Positions 14,063 to 44,991 of a stretch of DNA of 44,991 nucleotides are shown here, piece after piece. Source of the stretch: a phage. The stretch lies in sequence record PZ379602.1. The stretch is one strand, 5' to 3'. Numbering within the stretch: the first letter of the stretch is position 1; each line of letters begins with the position of its first letter. The notes under the pieces are model-generated. The model was not told the origin of the DNA. It was given only the letters and a program-made list of their open reading frames with translations, and did not search any database. The position numbers were made by a program, and so were the translations under genes.

Positions 14063-14278
14063 ATGAGGGAAGTAATTAACGCCGCCACGGCATCAACCGG
14101 CGGAGCCGCTGTAACTGGTGCCGCAACTGGTCAAATGACTATAGCAATAATCAGCCTTGTGGCTCTTGTTGTTTTCGGGCTGTGGGGAGCATATTGGAAG
14201 TTTAAGGACAGTCAGGCAATCAGGAAGGCTCTAGAGTCGGGTGATTTAAAGACAGCTATCAATATTAGGAGTAAGTAA
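14063..14278 (+). CDS. holin (single predicted transmembrane helix)
   Basis: 71 aa from ATG after AGGTGA RBS; hydrophobic stretch IAIISLVALVVFGLWGAYW; charged C-terminus; immediately upstream of the endolysin. Confidence 0.65.
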   Translation: MREVINAATASTGGAAVTGAATGQMTIAIISLVALVVFGLWGAYWKFKDSQAIRKALESGDLKTAINIRSK

Positions 14279-14763
14279 TGAAGCAGAAGCTGGTAATTAG
14301 TGCAGCGACGGCTGTGGCAATATACATCGCAGCGCCGATTATTGAGCTAGTAGAAGGTGTGGAATACAAGCCTTACATGGACATTGCAGGCATTCCTACG
14401 GTTTGTTCAGGTATCACTGGTCCTGATGTGGTGTGGGGTAAAAAGTACAGTGCAAGGGAGTGCAGGAACTTACTGGAGAAACACATCCAGATTCATGGAA
14501 AGTATGTGCAGGATGCAGTAACTTACCCAATCTCTCCACAGACAAGGGCGGCGTTAATCAGCTTTAGCTACAACGTTGGTGGCGCTGCAATGAGGAAGTC
14601 AACGGCAGTAAGGCTGATTAATCAGGGCAAGATTGAAGAGGGTTGTAATGCTCTCGCCTCCTGGAATAAAGCTCGAGTAAATGGCAAGCTAAAAGTTGTT
14701 AAAGGCCTCGTTAACAGGCGCAACGAGGAGATTAAATTATGCTTAAGTGGGGTGGGTAAATGA
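14278..14763 (+). CDS. SAR endolysin (lysozyme-like muramidase with N-terminal signal-anchor-release domain)
   Basis: Weakly hydrophobic Ala-rich N-terminus followed by an E-x8-D-x5-T catalytic arrangement (E...MDIAGIPT). Confidence 0.8.
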   Translation: MKQKLVISAATAVAIYIAAPIIELVEGVEYKPYMDIAGIPTVCSGITGPDVVWGKKYSARECRNLLEKHIQIHGKYVQDAVTYPISPQTRAALISFSYNVGGAAMRKSTAVRLINQGKIEEGCNALASWNKARVNGKLKVVKGLVNRRNEEIKLCLSGVGK

Positions 14764-24457: not shown

Positions 24458-26026
24458 ATGGCTAATTTAGTTTGGGAGGAAATGACGCCAGCAGAAAAGA
24501 TGGCGGTTAAGGCGATATCCACTCATAGCTTCGAGGGTTTCTTACGAGTGTGGTTCCAGCTTACCCAGGGAGAGCGATACATACCTAACTGGCACCATAG
24601 ATACCTTTGCAGAATTATCGATGAGATTATTGCTGGTGAGCGTAAGGACACAATCATTAACATCGCTCCTGGCAGTGGGAAGACAGAGATTGCCTCAATT
24701 CACTTCCCAGCCTACTCAATGGTTAAGTTGAGAAAGGTAAGGAACCTGAATATATCGTATGCTGACTCACTGGTTAAGCGTAACTCCAAGCGTGTGCGCG
24801 ACTTAATTAAGTCTGTTGAGTTCCAGGAGTTGTTCCCATGTAAGTTTGGTACGTGTAAGGATGATGAGCTACAGGTCCTGGATGACTATGGCAAGGTCAG
24901 GTTTGAGTCAATCTCTAAAGCCACTGGCGGCCAAATTACAGGCGCGAGGGGTGGATATATAACCGATTCGTATAGTGGTGCGGTACTGTTAGATGATTTT
25001 GACAAACCAGCCGACATGCTTTCTGCTGTTTTTCGCGCTAACAATCACGTGATGCTAAAGAATACAATACGCTCTCGTAGGGCGAGCTCCGTAAAAGGAA
25101 AGGCGACGCCGATTATCTCTATCCAACAGCGCCTTCATGTGAACGATAGTACGTGGTTCATGATGAATGGCGGTATGGGTATTAGCTTCGACTTGATTAA
25201 AATACCGGCGCTCGTAACTGAGGATTACGTCGACACGCTTCCTGACTGGATTAAGCAGCAATTCATTGATGACGTTCTATCAAGCGAATATATTGAGCGT
25301 GATGGTGTTAGGTACTATAGCTATTTCCCTGGCAAGGAATCTGTTCACGACCTAGTTGCAATGTGGGATTCTGATAGCTATACATTCCTTAGCCAGTATC
25401 AGCAAGAACCAGTAGCACTTGGCGGCAACCTGATTAACGTAGACTGGCTTCAACGCATTAGCGACACTCTGCGACCGCCAGCTAAGTACGATTACAGGTT
25501 TATGGTCCTTGATACTGCGATGACAACCAAAAGTTACAGCGACTTTAGCGTCATGCAGCTATGGGGTTATAAGGATGGGAAGATTTATCTGCTTGACCAG
25601 CGGCGCGGTAAATTTGAAGCTCCTGAGCTCGAGGCTGAGTTATTGGATTTCGAGAAGATGGCTAGGGCATCCAATCAGATAGATGGCATCCTTCGTAAAA
25701 TCATCATCGAGAAGAAAGCCTCTGGTATTGGCCTGATTCAATCAGCCGGAAGGGTTATGCGAACGCCTATCGAGCCGTACGTTCCGGATAACGATAAGCT
25801 GACTCGCGTAATGAGTGCATTGCCGCAGATTAAAGCTGGTAACGTAATCCTTCCGGAGTCTGCTACTTGGCTTAATGGCTTGCTAACGGAGATTGCGGCA
25901 TTCACGGCAGATGATTCACATGTTCACGATGACCAGATAGACTGTTTGACAATGGCTGTCAACCTGGTACTGAACATTGCAGAAGACCCTAAATCGAGGA
26001 TGATGCGCCTCGCTGGCATCAAATAG
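24458..26026 (+). CDS. terminase large subunit
   Basis: Walker A-like NIAPGSGKTEI; acidic nuclease-type C-terminal half; start at ATG 24458 (an alternative ATG exists at 24407). Confidence 0.85.
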   Translation: MANLVWEEMTPAEKMAVKAISTHSFEGFLRVWFQLTQGERYIPNWHHRYLCRIIDEIIAGERKDTIINIAPGSGKTEIASIHFPAYSMVKLRKVRNLNISYADSLVKRNSKRVRDLIKSVEFQELFPCKFGTCKDDELQVLDDYGKVRFESISKATGGQITGARGGYITDSYSGAVLLDDFDKPADMLSAVFRANNHVMLKNTIRSRRASSVKGKATPIISIQQRLHVNDSTWFMMNGGMGISFDLIKIPALVTEDYVDTLPDWIKQQFIDDVLSSEYIERDGVRYYSYFPGKESVHDLVAMWDSDSYTFLSQYQQEPVALGGNLINVDWLQRISDTLRPPAKYDYRFMVLDTAMTTKSYSDFSVMQLWGYKDGKIYLLDQRRGKFEAPELEAELLDFEKMARASNQIDGILRKIIIEKKASGIGLIQSAGRVMRTPIEPYVPDNDKLTRVMSALPQIKAGNVILPESATWLNGLLTEIAAFTADDSHVHDDQIDCLTMAVNLVLNIAEDPKSRMMRLAGIK

Positions 26027-26087
26027 CACGTTTTGCTAAAGACGCGCCGCCAAGGATGGCTTATAGTTACTTCACGCAAACGAGAGG
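26023..26087 (+). promoter_or_regulatory. promoter-like element (box ATAGCACGTTTTGCTAAA, hairpin GCCA...TGGC, TATAGT)
   Basis: Box overlaps the TAG stop of terminase; 23-bp spacing. Confidence 0.45.
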
Positions 26088-26095
26088 AGTAAAAA

Positions 26096-26449
26096 ATGAA
26101 AGCAGTATTTAAAGGGTATAAAAAAGCTGGTTATTTTGATTTTACCGTTGGTAAGATTTATGACTTATCAAGAACGCCTGGAAGTAATAATGAATACGTC
26201 AAAGTTAAGGATGATAAAGGCTATTTGGGCGTAATTAATCTTAGTGTTTATGATTTCGAAGTTATAGAGCCTACCGATTTTGTCGTTAAAGGTGATAATT
26301 TTAAAGTTGAAAAGGCTGGGATTAAATACTTCATCAACAAAGACATAGTAACTAAAGAGGCATTTTATGAAGTCAGAAGGGAGGTTCGCCAGTTAACACT
26401 TAATGGAGTGAAAACATCATCAATCAAGTTCGAAGTAAAATTCGAGTAA
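26096..26449 (+). CDS. hypothetical protein (117 aa), moron-like insert between terminase and portal
   Basis: Own promoter-like element upstream and own terminator downstream; Lys-rich. Confidence 0.55.
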   Translation: MKAVFKGYKKAGYFDFTVGKIYDLSRTPGSNNEYVKVKDDKGYLGVINLSVYDFEVIEPTDFVVKGDNFKVEKAGIKYFINKDIVTKEAFYEVRREVRQLTLNGVKTSSIKFEVKFE

Positions 26450-26471
26450 CCATAAAAGCTATGCTAAACTA

Positions 26472-26493
26472 AGCCCCTAAATGGGGCTTTTTA
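26472..26493 (+). terminator. rho-independent terminator
   Basis: Hairpin AGCCCC-taaat-GGGGCT followed by T5. Confidence 0.65.
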
Positions 26494-32832: not shown

Positions 32833-33229
32833 TGCAGTATGAATTATCTTTGGCGGCAAGGAGGTTTGTGACTGATTTGGTTAAAACGTTTCCAGTCAGG
32901 TATCCAATCTCCTATGAAAACGTAGCCTTTTCCCCTCAAGAAATGGCGGCATGTGGCTGAAGTACGATTATACCGAGGCTGACACAGTAACCTATAGCTT
33001 GAGTCGCAAGTGTAAGTATTATGTTGGCATGGTTCAGGTATCTGTCTTTTTCTCACCAGGTGATGGTGTTGATAGTGCGAGGAGAATTGCTAATCAATTG
33101 GCAGAATCAATGCTTGATGGTACAATGCTTGACACAGGCTACATTTATGAGGGCGGAGTAGTTCACCCGGTAGTGAAGTCAAAATCTGGCTGGTTTATTC
33201 CAGTTCGTTTCTATGTTCGTCTTGACTAA
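32832..33229 (+). CDS. tail completion-like protein, apparently split by a frameshift near 32928-32950
   Basis: 42-codon ORF 32832..32960 and ORF 32951..33229 together give about 133 aa; T4 and C4 runs at 32928-32935 are candidate sites. Confidence 0.4.
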
Positions 33230-33239
33230 AAGGTTGCAA

Positions 33240-33725
33240 ATGAAAGAGTTCTTAAATTCTCTTTACGATTATCGCGATGGTCAAATCTTTCATAAAGGAG
33301 GTTCAAAGCCATGTGGGTATGGAAAGCCTAACGGATACATTCAAACTTACGTCTCAAAGACTGGTAAGAAGTATGTTCACAGGATTATTTGGACAATGCA
33401 TAATGGAGACATCCCAGAAGGCATGCAAATTGACCATTTAAATGGCAATAGGAGCGACAACCGCATTGAGAATTTAAGGTGCGCATCAGTAACTGAAAAT
33501 AGAAGAAATTCAGGAACGAAATATAGGTATCGTAGATTCCCTGGTGTTAATGGTGTAAACTACAATAAGCGCGATAATCTTTGGCATGCAATGATTTCTG
33601 ATAATGGCGTAGCTAAGAGCCTTGGTCATTACAAGTCATTTGTTAGTGCATGTGAAGCTAGAATTATCGCAGAAGTAAATCTTGGATACCACGTAAATCA
33701 CGCGATGCGTGATAGCGTATATTAA
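33240..33725 (+). CDS. free-standing HNH homing endonuclease with AP2-like DNA-binding domain
   Basis: HRIIWTMHNG...QIDHLNGNRSDNRIENLRCASVTENRRN is an HNH motif; C-terminal YRGV-like region; inserted between tail completion and major tail genes. Confidence 0.8.
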   Translation: MKEFLNSLYDYRDGQIFHKGGSKPCGYGKPNGYIQTYVSKTGKKYVHRIIWTMHNGDIPEGMQIDHLNGNRSDNRIENLRCASVTENRRNSGTKYRYRRFPGVNGVNYNKRDNLWHAMISDNGVAKSLGHYKSFVSACEARIIAEVNLGYHVNHAMRDSVY

Positions 33726-33734
33726 CTTAACTCT

Positions 33735-34412
33735 TTGAATTGGAGGTGTATTATTGCCCATCTCAGCAATGGCACTCAGGTCTTCGTAGAAGGCACTAGG
33801 GGAGCTGCTATCGACGTAACCGCAATTTCCAACGCGGTTAATCCTGTTTTAACTTTGTCCAGCGTTGCAGATATTGCACGCGGTGACTACCTGTTGTTTA
33901 CCAGCTCCGCTTCAACTCTGCTGGCTGATAAGCAAGTTCGCGTTACCGCAGTGTCTGGTTCAACCGTAACTGTTGAAGGTATTGACACCTCCAGCACCAC
34001 CAAGTTCCCGGCCGGTTTAACTGGTGAAGTGGTTAAGATTCTTAGCTGGTTTGAGGTTCCTTGCGTTCAGGACGTATCCACTGACGGCGGCGAACAGCAG
34101 TTCGTTAACTTCCAGTGTTTATCCGATGACCGTGAGCAACAGATTCCAACTTATAAATCTGCGGTAACTAATACCTACACTTTCGCGCACGAATACACCA
34201 ACCCGATATATCCGATTCTGCGTAACTATGACGAAGCTGGTACTGTTGTTGCTATCCGTCTGTTCGTACCTCGCGCTAGTGAGATGCGTCTTCAGTCTGG
34301 CACTATCGCTTTCAACGACACGCCGAGCATTGGTGTTAACGAAATCGAAACGGTATCCATTGCGGTATCTATTCGCGGCAGGCTGAGTTCTGTAGCTTCT
34401 GAACTGGCATAA
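33735..34412 (+). CDS. major tail protein (start codon uncertain)
   Basis: Thr/Ser/Val-rich 225-codon frame; no in-frame ATG near the GGAGG RBS at 33742-33746. Confidence 0.55.
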   Translation: MNWRCIIAHLSNGTQVFVEGTRGAAIDVTAISNAVNPVLTLSSVADIARGDYLLFTSSASTLLADKQVRVTAVSGSTVTVEGIDTSSTTKFPAGLTGEVVKILSWFEVPCVQDVSTDGGEQQFVNFQCLSDDREQQIPTYKSAVTNTYTFAHEYTNPIYPILRNYDEAGTVVAIRLFVPRASEMRLQSGTIAFNDTPSIGVNEIETVSIAVSIRGRLSSVASELA

Positions 34413-34418
34413 AAATTA

Positions 34419-34441
34419 ACCCTCTTCGGAGGGTTTTTTAT
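34419..34441 (+). terminator. rho-independent terminator after the major tail gene
   Basis: Hairpin ACCCTC-ttcg-GAGGGT followed by T6. Confidence 0.7.
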
Positions 34442-34443
34442 TG

Positions 34444-34505
34444 ATAGCACTTTTTGTTAAAGGCTAAGTCGCGGATTGCTGTATAGTTCATTCATCGAAA
34501 AGAAA
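34444..34505 (+). promoter_or_regulatory. modular promoter-like element inside the tail module (box ATAGCACTTTTTGTTAAA, TATAGT, CATCGAAAAGAAA)
   Basis: 22-bp spacing; leader box 5 nt after the hexamer. Confidence 0.5.
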
Positions 34506-34520
34506 TGAGAGATTAATGAA

Positions 34521-34769
34521 ATGAACAACGTTAAAAATATCATCAAACTTGCTGCTGCTCTTGGTGCTTTCTACCTGGCAATTCAGATTGTCAACCCAAC
34601 TGGTGGCGCAACCGCTAACTCTGATGCAATAAAGTATGAACATGAATTTAATAGTGCATATTCTCATTGTGAAAAAGTAGCTGGCGATAAGACAAATCAG
34701 ATTCTGCATTATGGTCGCGAGGTGTGCACCGAAGTTGCTCACAACATTGTAAAAAACGAATCAAAGTAA
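34521..34769 (+). CDS. small secreted protein with predicted signal peptide (82 aa), moron-like
   Basis: N-terminal hydrophobic segment IIKLAAALGAFYLAIQIV; own promoter-like element; located between the major tail and chaperone genes. Confidence 0.5.
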   Translation: MNNVKNIIKLAAALGAFYLAIQIVNPTGGATANSDAIKYEHEFNSAYSHCEKVAGDKTNQILHYGREVCTEVAHNIVKNESK

Positions 34770-34804
34770 TATAATCATTCAACACAAACAAAGGAGATAA
34801 CGAG

Positions 34805-35119
34805 ATGGCAAAATTTAAACTTTCACTTAAGGCGCTGCCTGACTTTAAACTTCCGGTTAAGTTTCAGTTAGCGAATGGTGAAGATGCAGAGGTGGTACTA
34901 ACAGTTAAGCACAAGAAATCATCTGAACTTCAGGAGATTCTTAATCGTGAAAACTTCAGCACTAAAGAATTGATTAACGAAATCTGCTCTGACTGGGATT
35001 TAGAAGAACCATTTAACGATGAGAACGTCGATGAGTTTGCAAACCTATTCCCAGGTGCAGTTCCATCATTGATGGATAGCTACATGAAAGCGCTGGCTGG
35101 GCAGCGAGTAAAAAACTAA
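34805..35119 (+). CDS. tail assembly chaperone (G-like)
   Basis: 104-aa acidic ORF immediately upstream of the tape measure gene, ending at a slippery sequence. Confidence 0.65.
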   Translation: MAKFKLSLKALPDFKLPVKFQLANGEDAEVVLTVKHKKSSELQEILNRENFSTKELINEICSDWDLEEPFNDENVDEFANLFPGAVPSLMDSYMKALAGQRVKN

Positions 35120-35433
35120 AACGCGCAGTATACTTACAATACCAGTCACCACCAACGGATGCCGAACTCGAAGCTATCGGAATGAAACGTTCCGATTATG
35201 AAGGTGATGAGCCTGAAGAGTTATACTTCGATGAAACAATGATGCAAAGCTGGGATGTGTACTGTGCCATGTCAACTCAATGGCGAGTAGGGGCTTGCGG
35301 TGCCACAGGCCTTGATTATAATTGCCTTCCATTCTTGTTCAAAGTCTATAAAATAGATGATGACGAAATGGTACTTAACGACATCAGAATACTTGAGGCT
35401 AAAGCCTTAGATATGATGAACGCCAAGAAATAG
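34805..35433 (+). CDS. tail assembly chaperone frameshift product (GT-like), via -1 programmed frameshift
   Basis: Heptamer A AAA AAC at 35110-35116 in the zero frame; the -1 frame is open from there through ORF 35182..35433. Confidence 0.55.
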
Positions 35434-35456
35434 CCATCCTTCGGGGTGGCTTTTTT
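35433..35456 (+). terminator. rho-independent terminator
   Basis: Stem GCCATCC / GGGTGGC (one G-U) with ttcg loop, followed by T6. Confidence 0.6.
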
Positions 35457-35470
35457 ATTATGGAGACAAC

Positions 35471-38443
35471 ATGGCAACTAACGAAATTGCTGGTATCACG
35501 CTAGCCGTCGACGTAGCTCAGGTCGATAAGGGTACGCAATCCTTACAGAAATTCAGGCAAGCAAACGAGCAAGCTGCAACAGGCATTAATAGCTTCGTCA
35601 ACGCCGAACTTGTAGCCAAGACTCAAGCAAGGGACACTGCAAGGCAGCTTGAGGAGCAGCGCAAATCTTTCGCATCACTTCAGCAAGCCATAGACCCAAC
35701 CGCTGCTAAATTCCTGAAGTTGCAGAAAGCAGCAACAGATTTGGACAAAGCATTTGAATCCGGGATAGTTCCTGATGATGAATTCTTCAGGCTTGGCTCT
35801 GTTATTGAAACTCAAATCAATAAGCTAAACAGGTCTAAAGCCGCTCTTAGCGAAGAAGGCAGGGCTGCACTACAGGCATCAATAGATAAAGAGAAAGCAA
35901 CAACAGCAGCACAAAAGTTCATTCAATCTCTTGAGAACGAGGCGAATGCAGCAAGCCTGACAAGGACTGAACTTCTTCAGCTTAAGGCTGCTCAGCTAGG
36001 AGTTAGTGACCAGGCTGCACCGATTATCGACAGGATTGGAAAGGCTGCCGAGGCATCTGCGGTACAATTGCAGAAGCAAAGCTCCGCTTTTGTTAAGTCT
36101 GGGCTTAGTGCCGGTCAATACAAGCAAGCAATTCGACAGCTTCCAGTGCAGATTACAGATATCGGAACCTCTCTAGCTGGTGGTATCCCAATCTGGCTAA
36201 TTGCAATTCAGCAGGGTGGGCAGATTAAGGATAGCTTTGGTGGTATTGCTAACACCGCAAGGTTCGCACTGGCAGCCATTAACCCATTAACGGCAGTTGT
36301 TGGGACTTTGGGCTTGGCCCTCGGCGCTCTTGGTGTTGCTGCTTATCAGGCTGACAAGAACACTCGCGGACTAGCATCAACGATAACATTGGTTGGCAAC
36401 TCAACTATCACGTCGACAGCGCAGATAAATCAGGTTGTTGATGGAATTGAGAGTTCAACACTAGCCACGCGCGGACTTATCCAGGAGATAGCTAACAGCC
36501 TGGTAGCAAACGGTAATCTGACTCTTACGCAGATAGATAAGATAACCAAGGCGACAGCACAATGGGCAACTGTAACATCAACAGACTCGAAAACTATTCT
36601 TGGATACTTTGATCAGATTACAAAGGACCCAATTCAAGGTCTGATTGCACTCGATAAGCAGTTCAACTTCCTTCAGTCTGGGCAATTGAAATACATTGAG
36701 AATATCAGGAAGACGGCTGGAGAAACAGAGGCTGTAACCGCAGCTACTGAGCTATTCGCTAACGTTATGGAAAACAGGCTAGCAGACGTAGCACTAAGCC
36801 TTAACCCTCTTGAGAGCGCATGGAATAGCTTCAGGAAGTTTGTAAGTGAGATTTGGGATGATATAAGCAAAAGGACGCTTGGGGCGCTTAACTTAATAAC
36901 TGACGTTGTTGCTGGGACTATTGAGCAGATAAGGTCGTTAATAAACTCCGGTGATATCCTATTGGGCGAGTTTGCAATAGCAGCAACCAAGACACTTCAG
37001 TCAATACCTGGACTTGGCGATTTAGGCAATGAAGCAATCGCTGAGCAGCAAAAGATTGTTGATGCAGCTAAGAAGCAAAATGAGGAGTTAGCAAAAAGCA
37101 TAGCTGAGCGAGATGCGAGAATCAGGAAGGGTGAGCTTGGTTATGTCGAGAACAACAATAACACCAACCTTAGCGGAAATAATGCATCAACCGATAAGGA
37201 GTTTGCAGCAAGGAAGAAGGCTCTTGCCGATGAGTATGATGCGATAAAGAAAGCAGGGAGTGAGAGGAAAAAGGCTGTAAAAGAAGAAAGGGATTTAACT
37301 TTATCTTATGAATCTGGCGTTCTTGCACTTCAGGCTCAGTTAAAGGTCTTACAAGAGCACAGAACGATAAATGATGTAATAAGCAATGAAAGAAAGCAGT
37401 TATTCCAGGAAGAAGCGAAGTTTGCAATACTTGAACAAAGACAAGCGGATGGTACGCTTACAAAATCACAGGCTAAGCTACTTGCGCAGAAGAATATCAT
37501 TCTTGAACAGGCTAAACAGAAGGCTGAACTTGGTGACCAGATTGTGCTTCAGGAGAGGTCAAACAAGTTACTTGATGACAACCTTAAGAAGACTGTGCAG
37601 ATTACAAATGAAGCAAATAATTTTTCACTTGCTGCTAATTTATCTGACAGGGAGAAGCAAAGAGCAAAAGAGCTTCAGGCACTTCAATCCAATCAGGTAA
37701 ACAAAGGTGGTTCTGTAGATGATACTGATTTTCAGGCATTACTAGAAGCCAGGCGTAATTTCTATGCTCAAGAGGATGCGCTACGTGAAAACTGGCTTGC
37801 TGGTGTGCAATCATCCTTCGCTAATTGGGCAGAGAGCGCGACAGATGCATTCTCTATCGCTGGTGAATTGACCACTTCCGTCTTTACCGGAATTACCGAG
37901 CAGATCACCAGCCTTGTAACAACTGGCACGGCAGACTTCAGGAGTTTTACCGTTGAGATCCTGAAACAGATTGCCAGGATTGCGACTCAACTCTTAATTG
38001 TTAAGGCCATTGAGTCAAGTCTGAGTAGTTTTGGTGGTACTGGCGGCGCTATTGGTTCAATTGGTAGTGCGCTTGGTTTTGCTGGCGGAGGTTATACTGG
38101 TGATGGCGGGAAATATCAACCTGCTGGGACTGTTCACCGTGGTGAGTTTGTATTCACAAAAGAGGCTACAAGCAGGATTGGTGTTAAGAATCTGTACAAG
38201 CTGATGCGCGGTTATGCAAATGGAGGTGCTGTTGGTGGGCCATCTGGTTATGCTAATGGTGGGGTTGTCGGCGGTACTAATGTCAGTGTTGGTGGTGTGA
38301 CGGTTAACGTAAACTCTGGAATCGGTGGCGGAAATGATGCTAAGGCGATAGAATCTGGAGTTAAGGTTATCGTGGCTGAGGAAATCAGCAAATCATTCCA
38401 ACAGGGTGGCAGAGCGTATCAGTTCTTGCGCGGTTACAACTAA
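35471..38443 (+). CDS. tail tape measure protein
   Basis: 990 aa; long Ala/Gln/Lys-rich helical N-terminal part and Gly-rich C-terminal region; position after the chaperones. Confidence 0.9.
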   Translation: MATNEIAGITLAVDVAQVDKGTQSLQKFRQANEQAATGINSFVNAELVAKTQARDTARQLEEQRKSFASLQQAIDPTAAKFLKLQKAATDLDKAFESGIVPDDEFFRLGSVIETQINKLNRSKAALSEEGRAALQASIDKEKATTAAQKFIQSLENEANAASLTRTELLQLKAAQLGVSDQAAPIIDRIGKAAEASAVQLQKQSSAFVKSGLSAGQYKQAIRQLPVQITDIGTSLAGGIPIWLIAIQQGGQIKDSFGGIANTARFALAAINPLTAVVGTLGLALGALGVAAYQADKNTRGLASTITLVGNSTITSTAQINQVVDGIESSTLATRGLIQEIANSLVANGNLTLTQIDKITKATAQWATVTSTDSKTILGYFDQITKDPIQGLIALDKQFNFLQSGQLKYIENIRKTAGETEAVTAATELFANVMENRLADVALSLNPLESAWNSFRKFVSEIWDDISKRTLGALNLITDVVAGTIEQIRSLINSGDILLGEFAIAATKTLQSIPGLGDLGNEAIAEQQKIVDAAKKQNEELAKSIAERDARIRKGELGYVENNNNTNLSGNNASTDKEFAARKKALADEYDAIKKAGSERKKAVKEERDLTLSYESGVLALQAQLKVLQEHRTINDVISNERKQLFQEEAKFAILEQRQADGTLTKSQAKLLAQKNIILEQAKQKAELGDQIVLQERSNKLLDDNLKKTVQITNEANNFSLAANLSDREKQRAKELQALQSNQVNKGGSVDDTDFQALLEARRNFYAQEDALRENWLAGVQSSFANWAESATDAFSIAGELTTSVFTGITEQITSLVTTGTADFRSFTVEILKQIARIATQLLIVKAIESSLSSFGGTGGAIGSIGSALGFAGGGYTGDGGKYQPAGTVHRGEFVFTKEATSRIGVKNLYKLMRGYANGGAVGGPSGYANGGVVGGTNVSVGGVTVNVNSGIGGGNDAKAIESGVKVIVAEEISKSFQQGGRAYQFLRGYN

Positions 38444-44415: not shown

Positions 44416-44440
44416 AGGCCCCTTTCGGGGCCTTTTCTTT
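44416..44440. terminator. bidirectional rho-independent terminator
   Basis: Hairpin GGCCCC-tttc-GGGGCC followed by TTTTCTTTT; the convergent minus-strand gene ends at 44440. Confidence 0.65.
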
Positions 44441-44897
44441 TAGTAGAAGTTTGGTATGAATGGTAGAGCCATTGATATGTTTGTGTCGAATGGGAATTGG
44501 GCTCCCGTCTGCGTTGAGTAGTTCCCTATCACAGTGCCTGGAACTGCCCTTACGGCACCACCAGACATGCATATTCCCTTGTACCTTAAGTTGTTATACC
44601 CTCCAGTAACTCTTGTTGTAGCGCCGCACCTGAGCAGTGGGAAGAACCCTCCATTTATTGACTGGAAACCATTGGTTATTTGTATAAAGCCACCAAGCAC
44701 GAACGGTCGCCTGACGCTTGAAAAACAATCTGTCCAGAACTATTAGACATTGTGAGTCCTGGGCCAGCTACTGGAGGGTCATTCCTGAATATCACTAACT
44801 GTACGTAAGTACTTGCTGCAACGTCATCTATGCCGCTGTAGTTTATGTTGCGTGCACCAAATTGTATTACCGTCGTTCTCCAGATGCAGCGGCGCAC
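44440..44897 (-). CDS. hypothetical protein (about 150 aa), apparently split by a frameshift at an A5 run
   Basis: ORFs 44676..44897 and 44440..44700 join into one Gly/Asn/Thr-rich protein if the run at 44721-44725 is one base longer; alternative start codon upstream. Confidence 0.4.
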
Positions 44898-44991
44898 GAA
44901 AAACGCGAAAGCGTTTCACGATAAATGCGAAAACTGTTTCCTCCTCTAACTGGGACATGGTTAAACACCTACCGAATTGAACGAAGTAAGG

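What the first reader, a model, noticed from the sequence alone, without database searches (positions are those of the whole stretch)
34444..34769. Moron-like gene for a small secreted protein with its own promoter element inside the tail operon
Between the major tail gene terminator and the chaperones lies an 82-aa ORF with a predicted signal peptide, preceded by one of only two promoter-box copies in the late region. A similar autonomous unit lies between terminase and portal (26023..26493). Such units are typical positions for superinfection-exclusion or host-interaction genes.
Basis: inference. Interest (0 to 1): 0.5.

Follow-up and report, generated by a model that had tools for sequence, protein, structure and literature searches.

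The report
Small exported accessory gene, tail operon
A T1-like E. coli phage carries, between its tail-tube and tail-chaperone genes, a real extra gene for an 82-residue protein that is probably exported to the cell envelope; it belongs to a small uncharacterised family, and its function, possibly blocking entry of related phages, is inferred and untested.

Summary
ORF 34521..34769 follows the tail-tube terminator and a perfect copy of the T1-family 19-nt box. That box has 16 strong copies in the window, only two of them in the late region. The ORF is a real gene: dN/dS is 0.1-0.3, and it is 82 aa long and syntenic in 82 phage records. It has a charged N-terminus, a 15-residue hydrophobic core, an A-T-A site, then a two-helix domain with two invariant cysteines. 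SignalP flagged the positional orthologue in phage MSK. No known family or fold matches.

The slot is empty in the five phages inspected outside Braunvirinae. In five Braunvirinae phages it holds an unrelated lipoprotein instead, and four relatives add a 47-aa membrane ORF. So it is a hotspot for envelope-targeted cargo.

It is not a full moron. There is no terminator after the gene, its GC equals that of the neighbouring chaperone gene, and a conserved sigma-70-like promoter for that gene overlaps its stop codon.

Cargo type follows the type of the tape-measure central module, not receptor-binding protein type, with one exception. I therefore favour a post-adsorption exclusion role like HK97 gp15, with low confidence. 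This is a new member of a known kind, of moderate interest.

The parts
34418..34435 (+). Intrinsic terminator after the tail-tube gene; left edge of the slot.
   Evidence: -11.1 kcal/mol. The same hairpin is conserved in ES, EC3a, JulesPiccard, ACG-M12, CY1, 12210I, Rtp and TR1.
34444..34462 (+). T1-family direct-repeat box ATAGCACTTTTTGTTAAAG, a partial palindrome (TAGCA-N5-TGCTA in the consensus).
   Evidence: 16 strong copies, all oriented towards a downstream start codon. It matches the consensus aaATAGCACnnnTTGnTAAAA described for TLS, T1 and Rtp (PMC11447400). It lies 77 nt upstream of the ATG.
34482..34487 (+). -10-like hexamer TATAGT, preceded directly by TG. It lies 19 nt after the box and 22 nt after the box's TTGTTA.
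   Evidence: Read from the sequence. The 18-20 nt gap between box and -10 is seen in the 12 copies where I measured it. Conserved in relatives.
34493..34511 (+). Conserved leader CATCGAAAA followed by a GAGAG Shine-Dalgarno-like element (34507..34511), 9 nt before the ATG.
   Evidence: Most box copies in the window share the same CATCGAAAcGA...GAGAG leader, as does this slot in relatives.
34521..34769 (+). 82-aa coding sequence, stop codon included. Residues 1-32 (34521..34616) form the signal peptide or signal anchor. Residues 33-82 (34617..34766) form a two-helix domain with invariant C50 and C69.
   Evidence: phrog_22925, E 6.6e-29. dN/dS 0.1-0.3. 82 phage records. AlphaFold2 helices at 2-24, 30-54 and 57-81, pLDDT 67.7. 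Invariant residues.
34747..34775 (+). Sigma-70-like promoter TTGTAA-17-TATAAT overlapping the stop codon of the 82-aa gene and facing the TAC gene; right edge of the slot.
   Evidence: 10 of 12 matches. Conserved as TTGCAA-17/18-TA(G/C)AAT in EC3a, JulesPiccard, 12210I, ACG-M12 and contig L030 although the coding sequence has diverged. Annotated as a promoter in KY398841.
34805..35451 (+). Tail assembly chaperone genes (34805..35119 and 35182..35433) and the next terminator (35432..35451). With no terminator in between, transcripts from the box promoter would be expected to read through these genes.
   Evidence: terminator -13.4 kcal/mol; the cargo-TAC spacer is predicted unstructured.
36350..37255 (+). 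Central module (about residues 294-595) of the tape measure protein (TMP) gene 35471..38443. The module type ('A') co-occurs with the 82-aa cargo.
   Evidence: TMP alignment and association tables.
26023..26489 (+). Second late-region box unit: box 26023..26041, ORF 26096..26449 (117 aa, rtp22 homologue), terminator 26471..26489.
   Evidence: GC is 0.328, in the lowest 0.1% of late-region windows. Matches phrog_14592 'virion structural protein'.

Best explanation
The unit is a real accessory gene of a virulent T1-like (Drexlerviridae, Braunvirinae-type) coliphage.

How it is probably expressed: one of the phage's standard promoter-leader cassettes (box, -10, CATCGAAA leader, SD) would drive an 82-residue pre-protein. 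The same type of cassette precedes the Erf recombinase, primase, helicase and lysis genes, so I infer expression with the non-structural genes.

Where the protein probably goes: its N-terminal 24-32 residues should send it through Sec. Whether signal peptidase I cuts it after A-T-A or it stays anchored in the inner membrane is open. Either way, a roughly 50-residue two-helix domain with two invariant cysteines would face the periplasm.

The slot: the gene sits in a Braunvirinae-specific slot at the 5' end of the chaperone transcription unit. That slot exchanges envelope-targeted cargo.

What it most likely does: it acts in the envelope of the infected cell after adsorption, interfering with the tape-measure-mediated DNA conduit of incoming related phages. 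That would be superinfection exclusion in the manner of HK97 gp15.

Shown here: the anatomy, that the ORF codes for protein, the slot behaviour, and the co-occurrence of cargo type with the TMP central module. Inferred: export, expression timing, and the exclusion mechanism.

Graded confidence: real gene for an envelope-targeted accessory protein about 0.85; post-adsorption exclusion role about 0.35.
For: Real gene:
- dN/dS is 0.05-0.32 in unsaturated pairs.
- Length is constant at 82 aa and position is syntenic in 82 phage records and in metagenome contigs.

Export:
- Sequence features, and invariant C50 and C69 in the domain after the hydrophobic helix.
- Published SignalP/TMHMM calls for the positional orthologue MSK_000011.

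Accessory and exchangeable:
- The slot is empty in five phages inspected outside Braunvirinae.
- Non-homologous lipoproteins with LAG|C or LTG|C lipoboxes occupy it in five phages.
- An extra 47-aa membrane ORF is present in four phages.

Link to the tape measure:
- Every locus where both could be read has the 82-aa cargo with TMP centre type A (15 loci).
- All five distinct phages (six records) with the Braunvirinae type-B centre have the lipoprotein.
- TR1 has a window-type tail tube (91%), TAC (100%) and DUF1799 protein (95%). Yet it combines an Rtp-type TMP with a lipoprotein only 31% identical to Rtp34. That means two separate patches flank an unchanged chaperone gene.
- Cargo does not follow receptor-binding protein (RBP) type. 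The window's RBP C-terminus resembles TR1's, not Rtp44.

Precedent: HK97 gp15 is a small inner-membrane protein encoded in the tail operon next to the chaperone and TMP genes. It blocks DNA entry with a specificity that depends on the tail (PMC3594210).
Against: - There is no experimental evidence for function, localisation or timing.
- Cargo and TMP genes lie only about 700 nt apart, so linkage and shared ancestry alone could produce the association. At most two independent co-switches can be counted.
- Metagenome contig L030 has a type-A TMP, but its slot holds only a 41-aa ORF that starts like Rtp34. The 82-aa gene is therefore dispensable and the pairing is not absolute.
- Both TMP centre types occur in subfamilies with an empty slot.
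- There is no sequence or fold similarity to any known exclusion protein.
- In the AlphaFold2 hairpin, C50 and C69 are out of register, so a simple intramolecular disulfide is not evident. The model has only moderate confidence.
- In two family members glutamate sits at -3 of the putative cleavage site, so cleavage is uncertain.
Confidence: 0.35

Rival explanations
1. It masks the receptor from the periplasmic side, as T5 Llp, T1/phi80 Cor and Rtp45 do. This would stop progeny and superinfecting phage from adsorbing to infected cells and debris.
For: The protein is predicted to be exported, small and cysteine-containing. Proteins of this kind are established in this phage family: Rtp45 binds LptDE (PMC12685063). 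The alternative cargo in the slot is a lipoprotein.
Against: It has no lipobox. In Drexlerviridae the exclusion lipoprotein is encoded next to the RBP gene downstream of gpJ (PMC8594841), and TR1 and Rtp carry one there in addition to their slot cargo. Cargo type does not follow RBP type.
Confidence: 0.15
2. It is an envelope housekeeping or lysis-timing factor for the phage's own infection. It might reseal the membrane after its own tape measure has inserted, or act as a periplasmic antiholin-like regulator comparable to T4 RI.
For: Its size and layout, an alanine/glycine-rich N-terminal hydrophobic segment plus a helical periplasmic domain, resemble T4 RI as I recall it. Co-occurrence with TMP type would also fit an interaction with the phage's own TMP.
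Against: A complete lysis cassette with its own box promoter lies elsewhere (box 13687; endolysin 14278..14763; holin and u-spanin assigned by synteny with TR1). No structural match to RI appeared. Most Drexlerviridae lack the gene, and so does contig L030.
Confidence: 0.15
3. It is a cytoplasmic or membrane-associated assembly co-factor for the tape measure. It would be co-transcribed with the chaperones, with its hydrophobic helix shielding the TMP's hydrophobic segments.
For: It lies directly upstream of the TAC genes with no terminator between them. Cargo type co-occurs with TMP type.
Against: It has signal-peptide features, and SignalP flagged the positional orthologue. The alternative cargo has a lipobox, so it must be exported. 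Homologous TMP modules assemble without any such gene in other subfamilies. Contig L030 lacks it.
Confidence: 0.1
4. It is a minor virion component.
For: It lies inside the tail gene cluster.
Against: It has a hydrophobic N-terminus. It is not among the proteins the MSK SDS-PAGE analysis names as detected, which is weak evidence. The gene is absent from most of the family.
Confidence: 0.03
5. It is a chance ORF in a long promoter-bearing spacer.
For: It is small and has no known domain.
Against: dN/dS is well below 1, while dN is about 3 times that of the tail tube. Length is conserved at 82 aa, and cysteine and glycine positions are invariant across 50-99% identity. It matches a PHROG family at E 6.6e-29.
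Confidence: 0.02

Closest known systems
HK97 gp15 (the first described moron; YebO-like superinfection exclusion protein)
   Same: Both are small proteins with one N-terminal hydrophobic helix. Both are encoded inside the tail operon next to the chaperone and tape-measure genes, as an insertion relative to related phages. gp15's exclusion depends on the tail of the incoming phage (PMC3594210). Here cargo type co-occurs with TMP type.
   Different: There is no sequence similarity, and no Pfam hit at all. The gene lies upstream of the chaperone genes rather than between chaperone and TMP. It has no terminator of its own. Its relatives are described as virulent or lytic phages, so there is no expression from a prophage. 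No phenotype has been tested.
Rtp34-type lipoproteins of Rtp, AugustePiccard, MM01, RobRod40 and TR1
   Same: They occupy exactly the same slot, behind the same terminator and box promoter-leader, and are also envelope-targeted.
   Different: They are not homologous. They are 126-128 aa long with a lipobox. They are paired with the other TMP central module, and they are likewise uncharacterised.
Periplasmic exclusion lipoproteins Llp (T5), Cor (T1, phi80, N15) and Rtp45
   Same: They are small exported phage proteins containing cysteines that are made during infection.
   Different: Those are lipoproteins encoded next to the RBP gene, and they act on the outer-membrane receptor. This protein has no lipobox and does not follow RBP type.
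T1-family 21-nt direct repeat aaATAGCACnnnTTGnTAAAA (TLS, T1, Rtp, Rogue1)
   Same: The 'promoter box' of the finding is this element, with the same consensus, orientation and distance to the start codon (77 nt here, about 76 in TLS).
   Different: Its function is unresolved in the literature (stoperator, enhancer site or UP element). Here I add three observations. The gap to a -10-like hexamer is nearly constant at 18-20 nt. The core is a partial palindrome. The downstream leader is conserved.

Membership tests
Moron (Juhala/Hendrix sense, as summarised in PMC3594210) | An extra gene between two genes that are adjacent in related phages. | tested here: met
   The tail-tube and TAC genes are adjacent (70-110 nt apart) in T1, AHS24, phSE-2, FritzSarasin and K50_evo20.
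Moron (Juhala/Hendrix sense, as summarised in PMC3594210) | Its own promoter. | tested here: inconclusive
   A complete box/-10/leader cassette precedes the gene. Promoter activity is not shown for any copy, and the same transcript would run on into the TAC genes.
Moron (Juhala/Hendrix sense, as summarised in PMC3594210) | Its own terminator downstream. | tested here: not met
   No hairpin lies between 34769 and 34805. The next terminator is at 35432..35451.
Moron (Juhala/Hendrix sense, as summarised in PMC3594210) | Base composition that differs from the neighbouring genes. | tested here: inconclusive
   GC is 0.394 against a late-region mean of 0.456 (7th percentile), but the adjacent TAC gene is 0.403 and DUF1799 is 0.413.
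Moron (Juhala/Hendrix sense, as summarised in PMC3594210) | Expression from a repressed prophage to the benefit of the lysogen. | not testable with these tools
   Published relatives (MSK, SU57) are described as virulent Drexlerviridae. I made no systematic search for lysogeny genes.
HK97 gp15 / YebO exclusion proteins | Sequence homology to gp15/YebO. | tested here: not met
   No Pfam family matches at E <= 0.1. NCBIfam and PDB profile searches gave nothing credible.
HK97 gp15 / YebO exclusion proteins | Blocks DNA entry without blocking the receptor, with a specificity set by the incoming tail. | not testable with these tools
   Only indirect evidence: cargo type co-occurs with the TMP central module, not with RBP type.
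Sec signal peptide cleaved by signal peptidase I | Positively charged n-region, hydrophobic h-region of about 10-15 residues, and small residues at -3 and -1. | tested here: inconclusive
   K5 and K9, L10-V24, and A30-T31-A32 are present in the window protein. Two family members have E at -3, so an uncleaved signal anchor is equally possible. SignalP 4.1 was positive for the positional orthologue in MSK.
Bacterial lipoprotein (Cor, Llp or Rtp45 type) | Lipobox L-x-x-C at the end of the signal peptide. | tested here: not met
   There is no cysteine before residue 50. The alternative cargos Rtp34 and the TR1 protein do have LLAG|C and LTG|C.
T1-family direct-repeat box | Match to aaATAGCACnnnTTGnTAAAA, oriented with transcription, about 76 nt upstream of a start codon. 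| tested here: met
   0 mismatches to the core pattern, + strand, 77 nt upstream of the ATG.
PHROG 22925 (unknown function) | Full-length profile match. | tested here: met
   E 6.6e-29, residues 1-82 against profile positions 1-82 of 82.

The most novel reading that the evidence does not exclude
The Braunvirinae slot between the tail-tube and chaperone genes may hold interchangeable envelope proteins, each matched to one type of tape-measure central module. The 82-aa helical protein would go with module A and the Rtp34-type lipoprotein with module B. Together they would form a modular 'ejection-conduit immunity' system in virulent siphophages, one that recognises the periplasm-exposed part of an incoming tape measure. 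That would make the envelope-crossing step of siphophage DNA delivery genetically tractable using naturally swapped pairs.
Probability: 0.2. Interest if true: 0.7.

Novelty: new member of a known kind. Interest (0 to 1): 0.4.

Why it matters
How the tape measure of a siphophage crosses the periplasm and inner membrane is poorly understood, and few proteins are known to act on that step.

This locus offers a small exported protein and a lipoprotein that replace each other at one locus, each co-occurring with a different tape-measure central module. The phages involved are easy to obtain: Bas01-03 of the BASEL collection, Rtp, and TR1/TR2. That allows a clean swap experiment.

If the protein only excludes superinfecting phage, it is one more accessory exclusion gene. 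That would still be useful for predicting cross-resistance among T1-like contaminant and therapeutic phages.

The work also places the finding's 'promoter box' in context. It is the unresolved T1-family repeat, here with a fixed geometry that is unlike a standard sigma-70 -35/-10 pair.

Tried and rejected
- Homology: Pfam, NCBIfam and a PDB sequence profile gave nothing credible. The word-indexed search of 5.8 billion proteins found only 8 close clusters. The HMM profile against 1.84 billion representatives found only the family's own cluster.
- Structure: the AlphaFold2 model has moderate confidence (pLDDT 67.7). Foldseek against PDB and BFVD gave no match at E <= 0.001. Small helical hairpins carry little information.
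- RNA: Rfam found nothing near threshold in 34350..34850.
- Positive selection: not found. The gene evolves fast (mature-part dN about 0.55 between clades) but under purifying selection.
- Coupling of cargo to receptor-binding protein type: rejected.
- The idea that TR1 is a near-identical sibling of the window phage: rejected. Genome-wide identity is only about 72-90% in the blastn segments, although the TAC protein is 100% identical.
- Wider sampling: IMG/VR scans with the two TMP modules returned only Rtp or nothing. The single metagenome scan added 6 loci, all of the 82-aa/type-A kind where both features could be read, except L030.
- Literature: a full-text search for the string ATAGCAC was useless, returning primer sequences. 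One search call failed on a term that was too short.
- The KanT1 and BASEL papers say nothing about this gene.

Full report
**What the window is**

The window is a T1-like E. coli siphophage (Drexlerviridae, Braunvirinae-type). In a 601-nt probe across the finding (34300..34900), phages ES and AN_ECEAS are 92% identical over its full length. CY1, TR2, TR3 and Rao1 are about 95% identical over the aligned 89-90%. Around the finding, the genes read in this order:
- an HNH endonuclease (33213..33725);
- the tail-tube gene (to 34412; PF08813, E 2e-67);
- an intrinsic terminator (34418..34435);
- the 82-aa ORF (34521..34769);
- the tail assembly chaperone (TAC) gene (34805..35119; PF08748);
- its DUF1799 partner (35182..35433);
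- a second terminator (35432..35451);
- the 990-aa tape measure protein (TMP) gene (35471..38443).

**Checking the observation**

The box ATAGCACTTTTTGTTAAAG starts at 34444 and the stop codon ends at 34769.

The box is far more frequent than chance. It has 14 matches at 3 or fewer mismatches, against 0.32 expected. A weight matrix built from these finds 16 strong copies. In the late region (23.8-44.4 kb) only 26023 and 34444 score high, so 'one of only two copies in the late region' is correct.

The protein has these features:
- a charged N-terminus (K5, K9);
- a 15-residue hydrophobic core, LAAALGAFYLAIQIV (mean hydropathy 2.08);
- an invariant N-P-T-G;
- A-T-A before N33.

I could not run SignalP. 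The MSK genome paper reports that SignalP 4.1 flagged only two MSK genes. One is the Cor/Rtp45-like lipoprotein. The other is MSK_000011, the gene directly after the major tail gene MSK_000010 and three genes before the 992-aa tape measure MSK_000014. TMHMM also flagged MSK_000011 (PMC8421802). MSK carries a 57%-identical copy of the 82-aa protein. I equate it with MSK_000011 by position only.

**The ORF is a gene**

tblastn finds the protein in 82 phage records at 50-99% identity. It is full-length in all of them and 82 aa long where inspected, except ACG-M12 (annotated as 88 aa) and, by alignment range, its close relatives SCS31 and ECH1. In every record I inspected it lies between the tail-tube and TAC genes.

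Nei-Gojobori dN/dS is 0.05-0.32 in pairs that are not saturated, which indicates purifying selection. Between clades dN is about 0.37-0.41, against 0.11-0.14 for the tail tube and about 0.20-0.22 for the TAC. The part after residue 32 reaches about 0.55. So it is a fast-evolving but constrained protein.

Invariant residues in the 9-sequence alignment include M1-I8, I23-G28, A32, N33, Y39, F43, C50, G55, K57, Q60, I61, G65, C69 and K82.

**No known family or fold**

- The only family hit is phrog_22925, of unknown function.
- Pfam, NCBIfam and a PDB sequence profile gave nothing credible.
- The 5.8-billion-protein search found 8 close clusters.
- An HMM profile against 1.84 billion representatives found one cluster, the family itself.
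- AlphaFold2 (pLDDT 67.7) predicts three helices at 2-24, 30-54 and 57-81.
- Foldseek against PDB and BFVD found nothing significant.

**The promoter box is known, but its function is not**

The element is the 21-nt direct repeat aaATAGCACnnnTTGnTAAAA reported for TLS and noted in T1, Rtp and Rogue1. In TLS it lies in the direction of transcription, about 76 nt upstream of start codons. The authors left its role open: stoperator, enhancer site or UP element (PMC11447400). Here the distances to the start codon are 77 and 73 nt.

Lining up the copies shows a whole repeated cassette:
- the box;
- then 18-20 nt;
- then a TATAAT-like hexamer (TATAGT here, 34482..34487);
- then a conserved leader, CATCGAAAcGA;
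- then a GAGAG-type ribosome-binding site.

The box's TTGnTA is 22-23 nt from the -10 element, too far for a normal sigma-70 -35. The consensus core is also a partial palindrome (TAGCA-N5-TGCTA). I therefore suspect a binding site for a dimeric regulator. A candidate is the phrog_2856 'transcriptional regulator' (6134..6616, minus strand), which is flanked by two boxes. This is inference.

Boxes precede the Erf recombinase, primase, two helicase genes and the lysis cassette. The cassette therefore marks the non-structural genes, and its two late-region copies stand out.

**Is the unit autonomous?**

Only partly. No terminator follows the 82-aa gene, and the spacer to the TAC gene is predicted to be unstructured. 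Transcripts from the box promoter should therefore continue through both chaperone genes to the terminator at 35432.

A good sigma-70-like promoter (TTGTAA-17-TATAAT, 34747..34775) overlaps the stop codon of the 82-aa gene. It is conserved as TTGCAA-17/18-TA(G/C)AAT in EC3a, JulesPiccard, 12210I, ACG-M12 and contig L030, although the coding sequence around it has diverged. The chaperone gene thus seems to have its own promoter at the right edge of the slot.

The GC content of the gene is 0.394, against a late-region mean of 0.456. The adjacent TAC gene is at 0.403, so there is no compositional break.

**The slot**

The tail-tube terminator is followed directly by the TAC gene, with an extended -10-like TGnTAnAAT element between them, in five phages outside Braunvirinae:
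- T1 (Tunavirinae);
- AHS24 (Rogunavirinae);
- phSE-2 and FritzSarasin (Tempevirinae);
- a Klebsiella relative, K50_evo20.

Among the phages I inspected, only Braunvirinae-type phages have a gene there, and the gene differs between them:
- The 82-aa family is present in most of them.
- A 126-128-aa lipoprotein is present in Rtp (rtp34, MKAIIAIMATLLLAG|C), AugustePiccard, MM01, RobRod40 and TR1 (MKAIIAAVIALTLTG|C). The TR1 protein is only 31% identical to Rtp34.
- An additional 47-aa membrane ORF sits between the promoter and the 82-aa gene in CY1. TR2, TR3 and Rao1 have an insertion of the same size at that place.
- Metagenome contig L030 has only a 41-aa ORF that begins like Rtp34.

The replaced segment starts just after the conserved leader and ends just before the TAC ribosome-binding site. 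Every cargo is predicted to go to the envelope.

**Link to the tape measure**

TMPs of the 82-aa phages and the lipoprotein phages share their N-terminal third, which includes the hydrophobic segments, and their C-terminal third. Their central modules are unrelated: about residues 294-595 in the window ('type A'), and about 70 residues shorter in the Rtp type ('type B').

- Every locus in which both features could be read pairs the 82-aa gene with type A. There are 15: the window, ES, EC3a, IME253, IME542, 12210I, DTL, JulesPiccard, two UViGs, a Logan contig and four metagenome contigs. MSK adds a 16th case by TMP length only.
- All six records (five distinct phages) with the Braunvirinae type-B module have the lipoprotein.

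TR1 is the informative case. Its tail tube (91%), TAC (100%) and DUF1799 protein (95%) are of the window's type, whereas Rtp's TAC is 72% identical. Its TMP is Rtp-like, 73% identical to the window's in the N-terminal part and 95% identical to Rtp's in the centre. Its cargo is a lipoprotein. Two separate patches therefore flank an unchanged chaperone gene.

Cargo does not follow receptor-binding protein type. The C-terminus of the window's RBP homologue resembles TR1's rather than Rtp44.

Several caveats apply:
- The two genes are about 700 nt apart, so linkage alone can create the pattern.
- At most two independent co-switches can be counted.
- L030 is an exception.
- Both module types occur in subfamilies whose slot is empty.

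**Most likely mechanism**

Shown here:
- a conserved, constrained gene for a small protein with an N-terminal export or anchor signal;
- a standard promoter-leader cassette in front of it;
- a cargo-swapping slot;
- co-occurrence of cargo type with TMP central-module type.

Inferred:
- the protein is made with the non-structural genes and enters the Sec pathway;
- it exposes a two-helix, cysteine-containing domain in the periplasm;
- there it interferes with the tape-measure conduit of incoming related phages.

The closest precedent is HK97 gp15. [quoted passage not shown] It blocks DNA entry without touching the receptor, and its specificity depends on the tail (PMC3594210).

Rivals are:
- receptor masking (Llp, Cor or Rtp45 type; PMC12685063);
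- a role in the phage's own infection, such as resealing the membrane or timing lysis;
- a co-chaperone for the TMP;
- a virion component.

The Rival explanations section gives the evidence for and against each. I put the real, exported accessory gene at about 0.85 and the exclusion mechanism at about 0.35.

**Verdict**

The moron and exclusion interpretation is partly supported: it is an inserted, exchangeable, envelope-directed accessory gene, but not an autonomous promoter-gene-terminator unit, and its function is untested. It is a new member of a known kind. Interest is moderate, and the cargo/tape-measure pairing is the part worth an experiment.

Noticed in passing
window, 16 sites (1316, 5078, 6137-, 6629, 8034, 10263, 13687, 17153-, 17932-, 18552-, 19782, 20293, 20976, 22321, 26023, 34444): The T1-family box belongs to a fixed cassette: the box, then 18-20 nt, then a TATAAT-like hexamer, then a CATCGAAAcGA leader and a GAGAG SD. 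The box core is a partial palindrome (TAGCA-N5-TGCTA), and its TTGnTA sits 22-23 nt from the -10, unlike a sigma-70 -35. In several copies the spacer holds an inverted repeat or a GGATGGC motif around the -10. The phrog_2856 regulator gene (6134..6616, minus strand) lies between two boxes.
   Followed up: partly
L017 (T1) 1688..1800; L021 (FritzSarasin) 1702..1800: T1 and FritzSarasin have no gene between the tail-tube and TAC genes. Yet the box is present there in reverse orientation (cttttaacaaaaagtgctat), downstream of an extended -10-like TGTAAAAT and just before the TAC start codon.
   Followed up: no
window 26023..26489: The second late-region box unit has a full promoter-gene-terminator layout and very low GC (0.328, lowest 0.1% of late-region windows). 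Its 117-aa product has no signal peptide. It is homologous to rtp22 and matches phrog_14592, which PHROGs labels 'virion structural protein'.
   Followed up: partly
window 33213..33760: An HNH endonuclease gene (PF13392) sits directly before the tail-tube gene. Where relatives have ATG GCC CAT, the window has ATT GCC CAT (33753), 7 nt after a GGAGG. The tail-tube gene may therefore start at AUU, or at an upstream TTG (33735) that has no SD.
   Followed up: partly
window 6713..9036: The helicase gene appears split. Its N-terminal part is at 6713..7306 and its C-terminal part at 8137..9036, with a LAGLIDADG homing-endonuclease ORF (7350..8204) between them and a box copy at 8034 inside that ORF. 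TR1 has one uninterrupted 1995-nt helicase gene.
   Followed up: no
window 44437..44991, minus strand: The homologue of the Rtp44/TR1 receptor-binding protein at the window's end can be followed only by switching reading frame at least twice. That suggests frameshifts, a pseudogene or sequence errors. Its start and any Rtp45-like exclusion lipoprotein lie outside the window.
   Followed up: partly
window 5078..5140: One box copy (GTAGCACTAATTGCTAAAG, + strand) lies between two minus-strand genes, the tail fibre and the primase. After a TATCAT it is followed only by a CCTCCCGAAGGAGG hairpin and no ORF. It could give a very short or antisense transcript.
   Followed up: no
L005 (CY1) 1341..1481; similar-sized insertions in TR2, TR3 and Rao1: An extra 47-codon ORF, MILIGMLTAFFYYATGLTFWVSLGAAIGTYFVSALLALIVRALRNR (phrog_16572, unknown function), lies between the box promoter and the 82-aa gene. 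It looks like a two-helix membrane peptide.
   Followed up: partly
L030 (OERM01001185.1) 196..321: A metagenome contig with a type-A tape measure has, in the slot, only a 41-aa ORF, MKAIIAIMAVAAATTLSIIYVKFCMSVAESCSIWQFATHWH. Its first nine residues equal those of Rtp34. It may be a remnant of a lipoprotein gene or another mini membrane peptide.
   Followed up: partly
L026 (BEK12A, Warwickvirus) 1941..2375: A weak relative of Rtp34 (26% identity, E 1e-3) is encoded in the early region after the helicase and a hypothetical gene, not in the tail slot.
   Followed up: no
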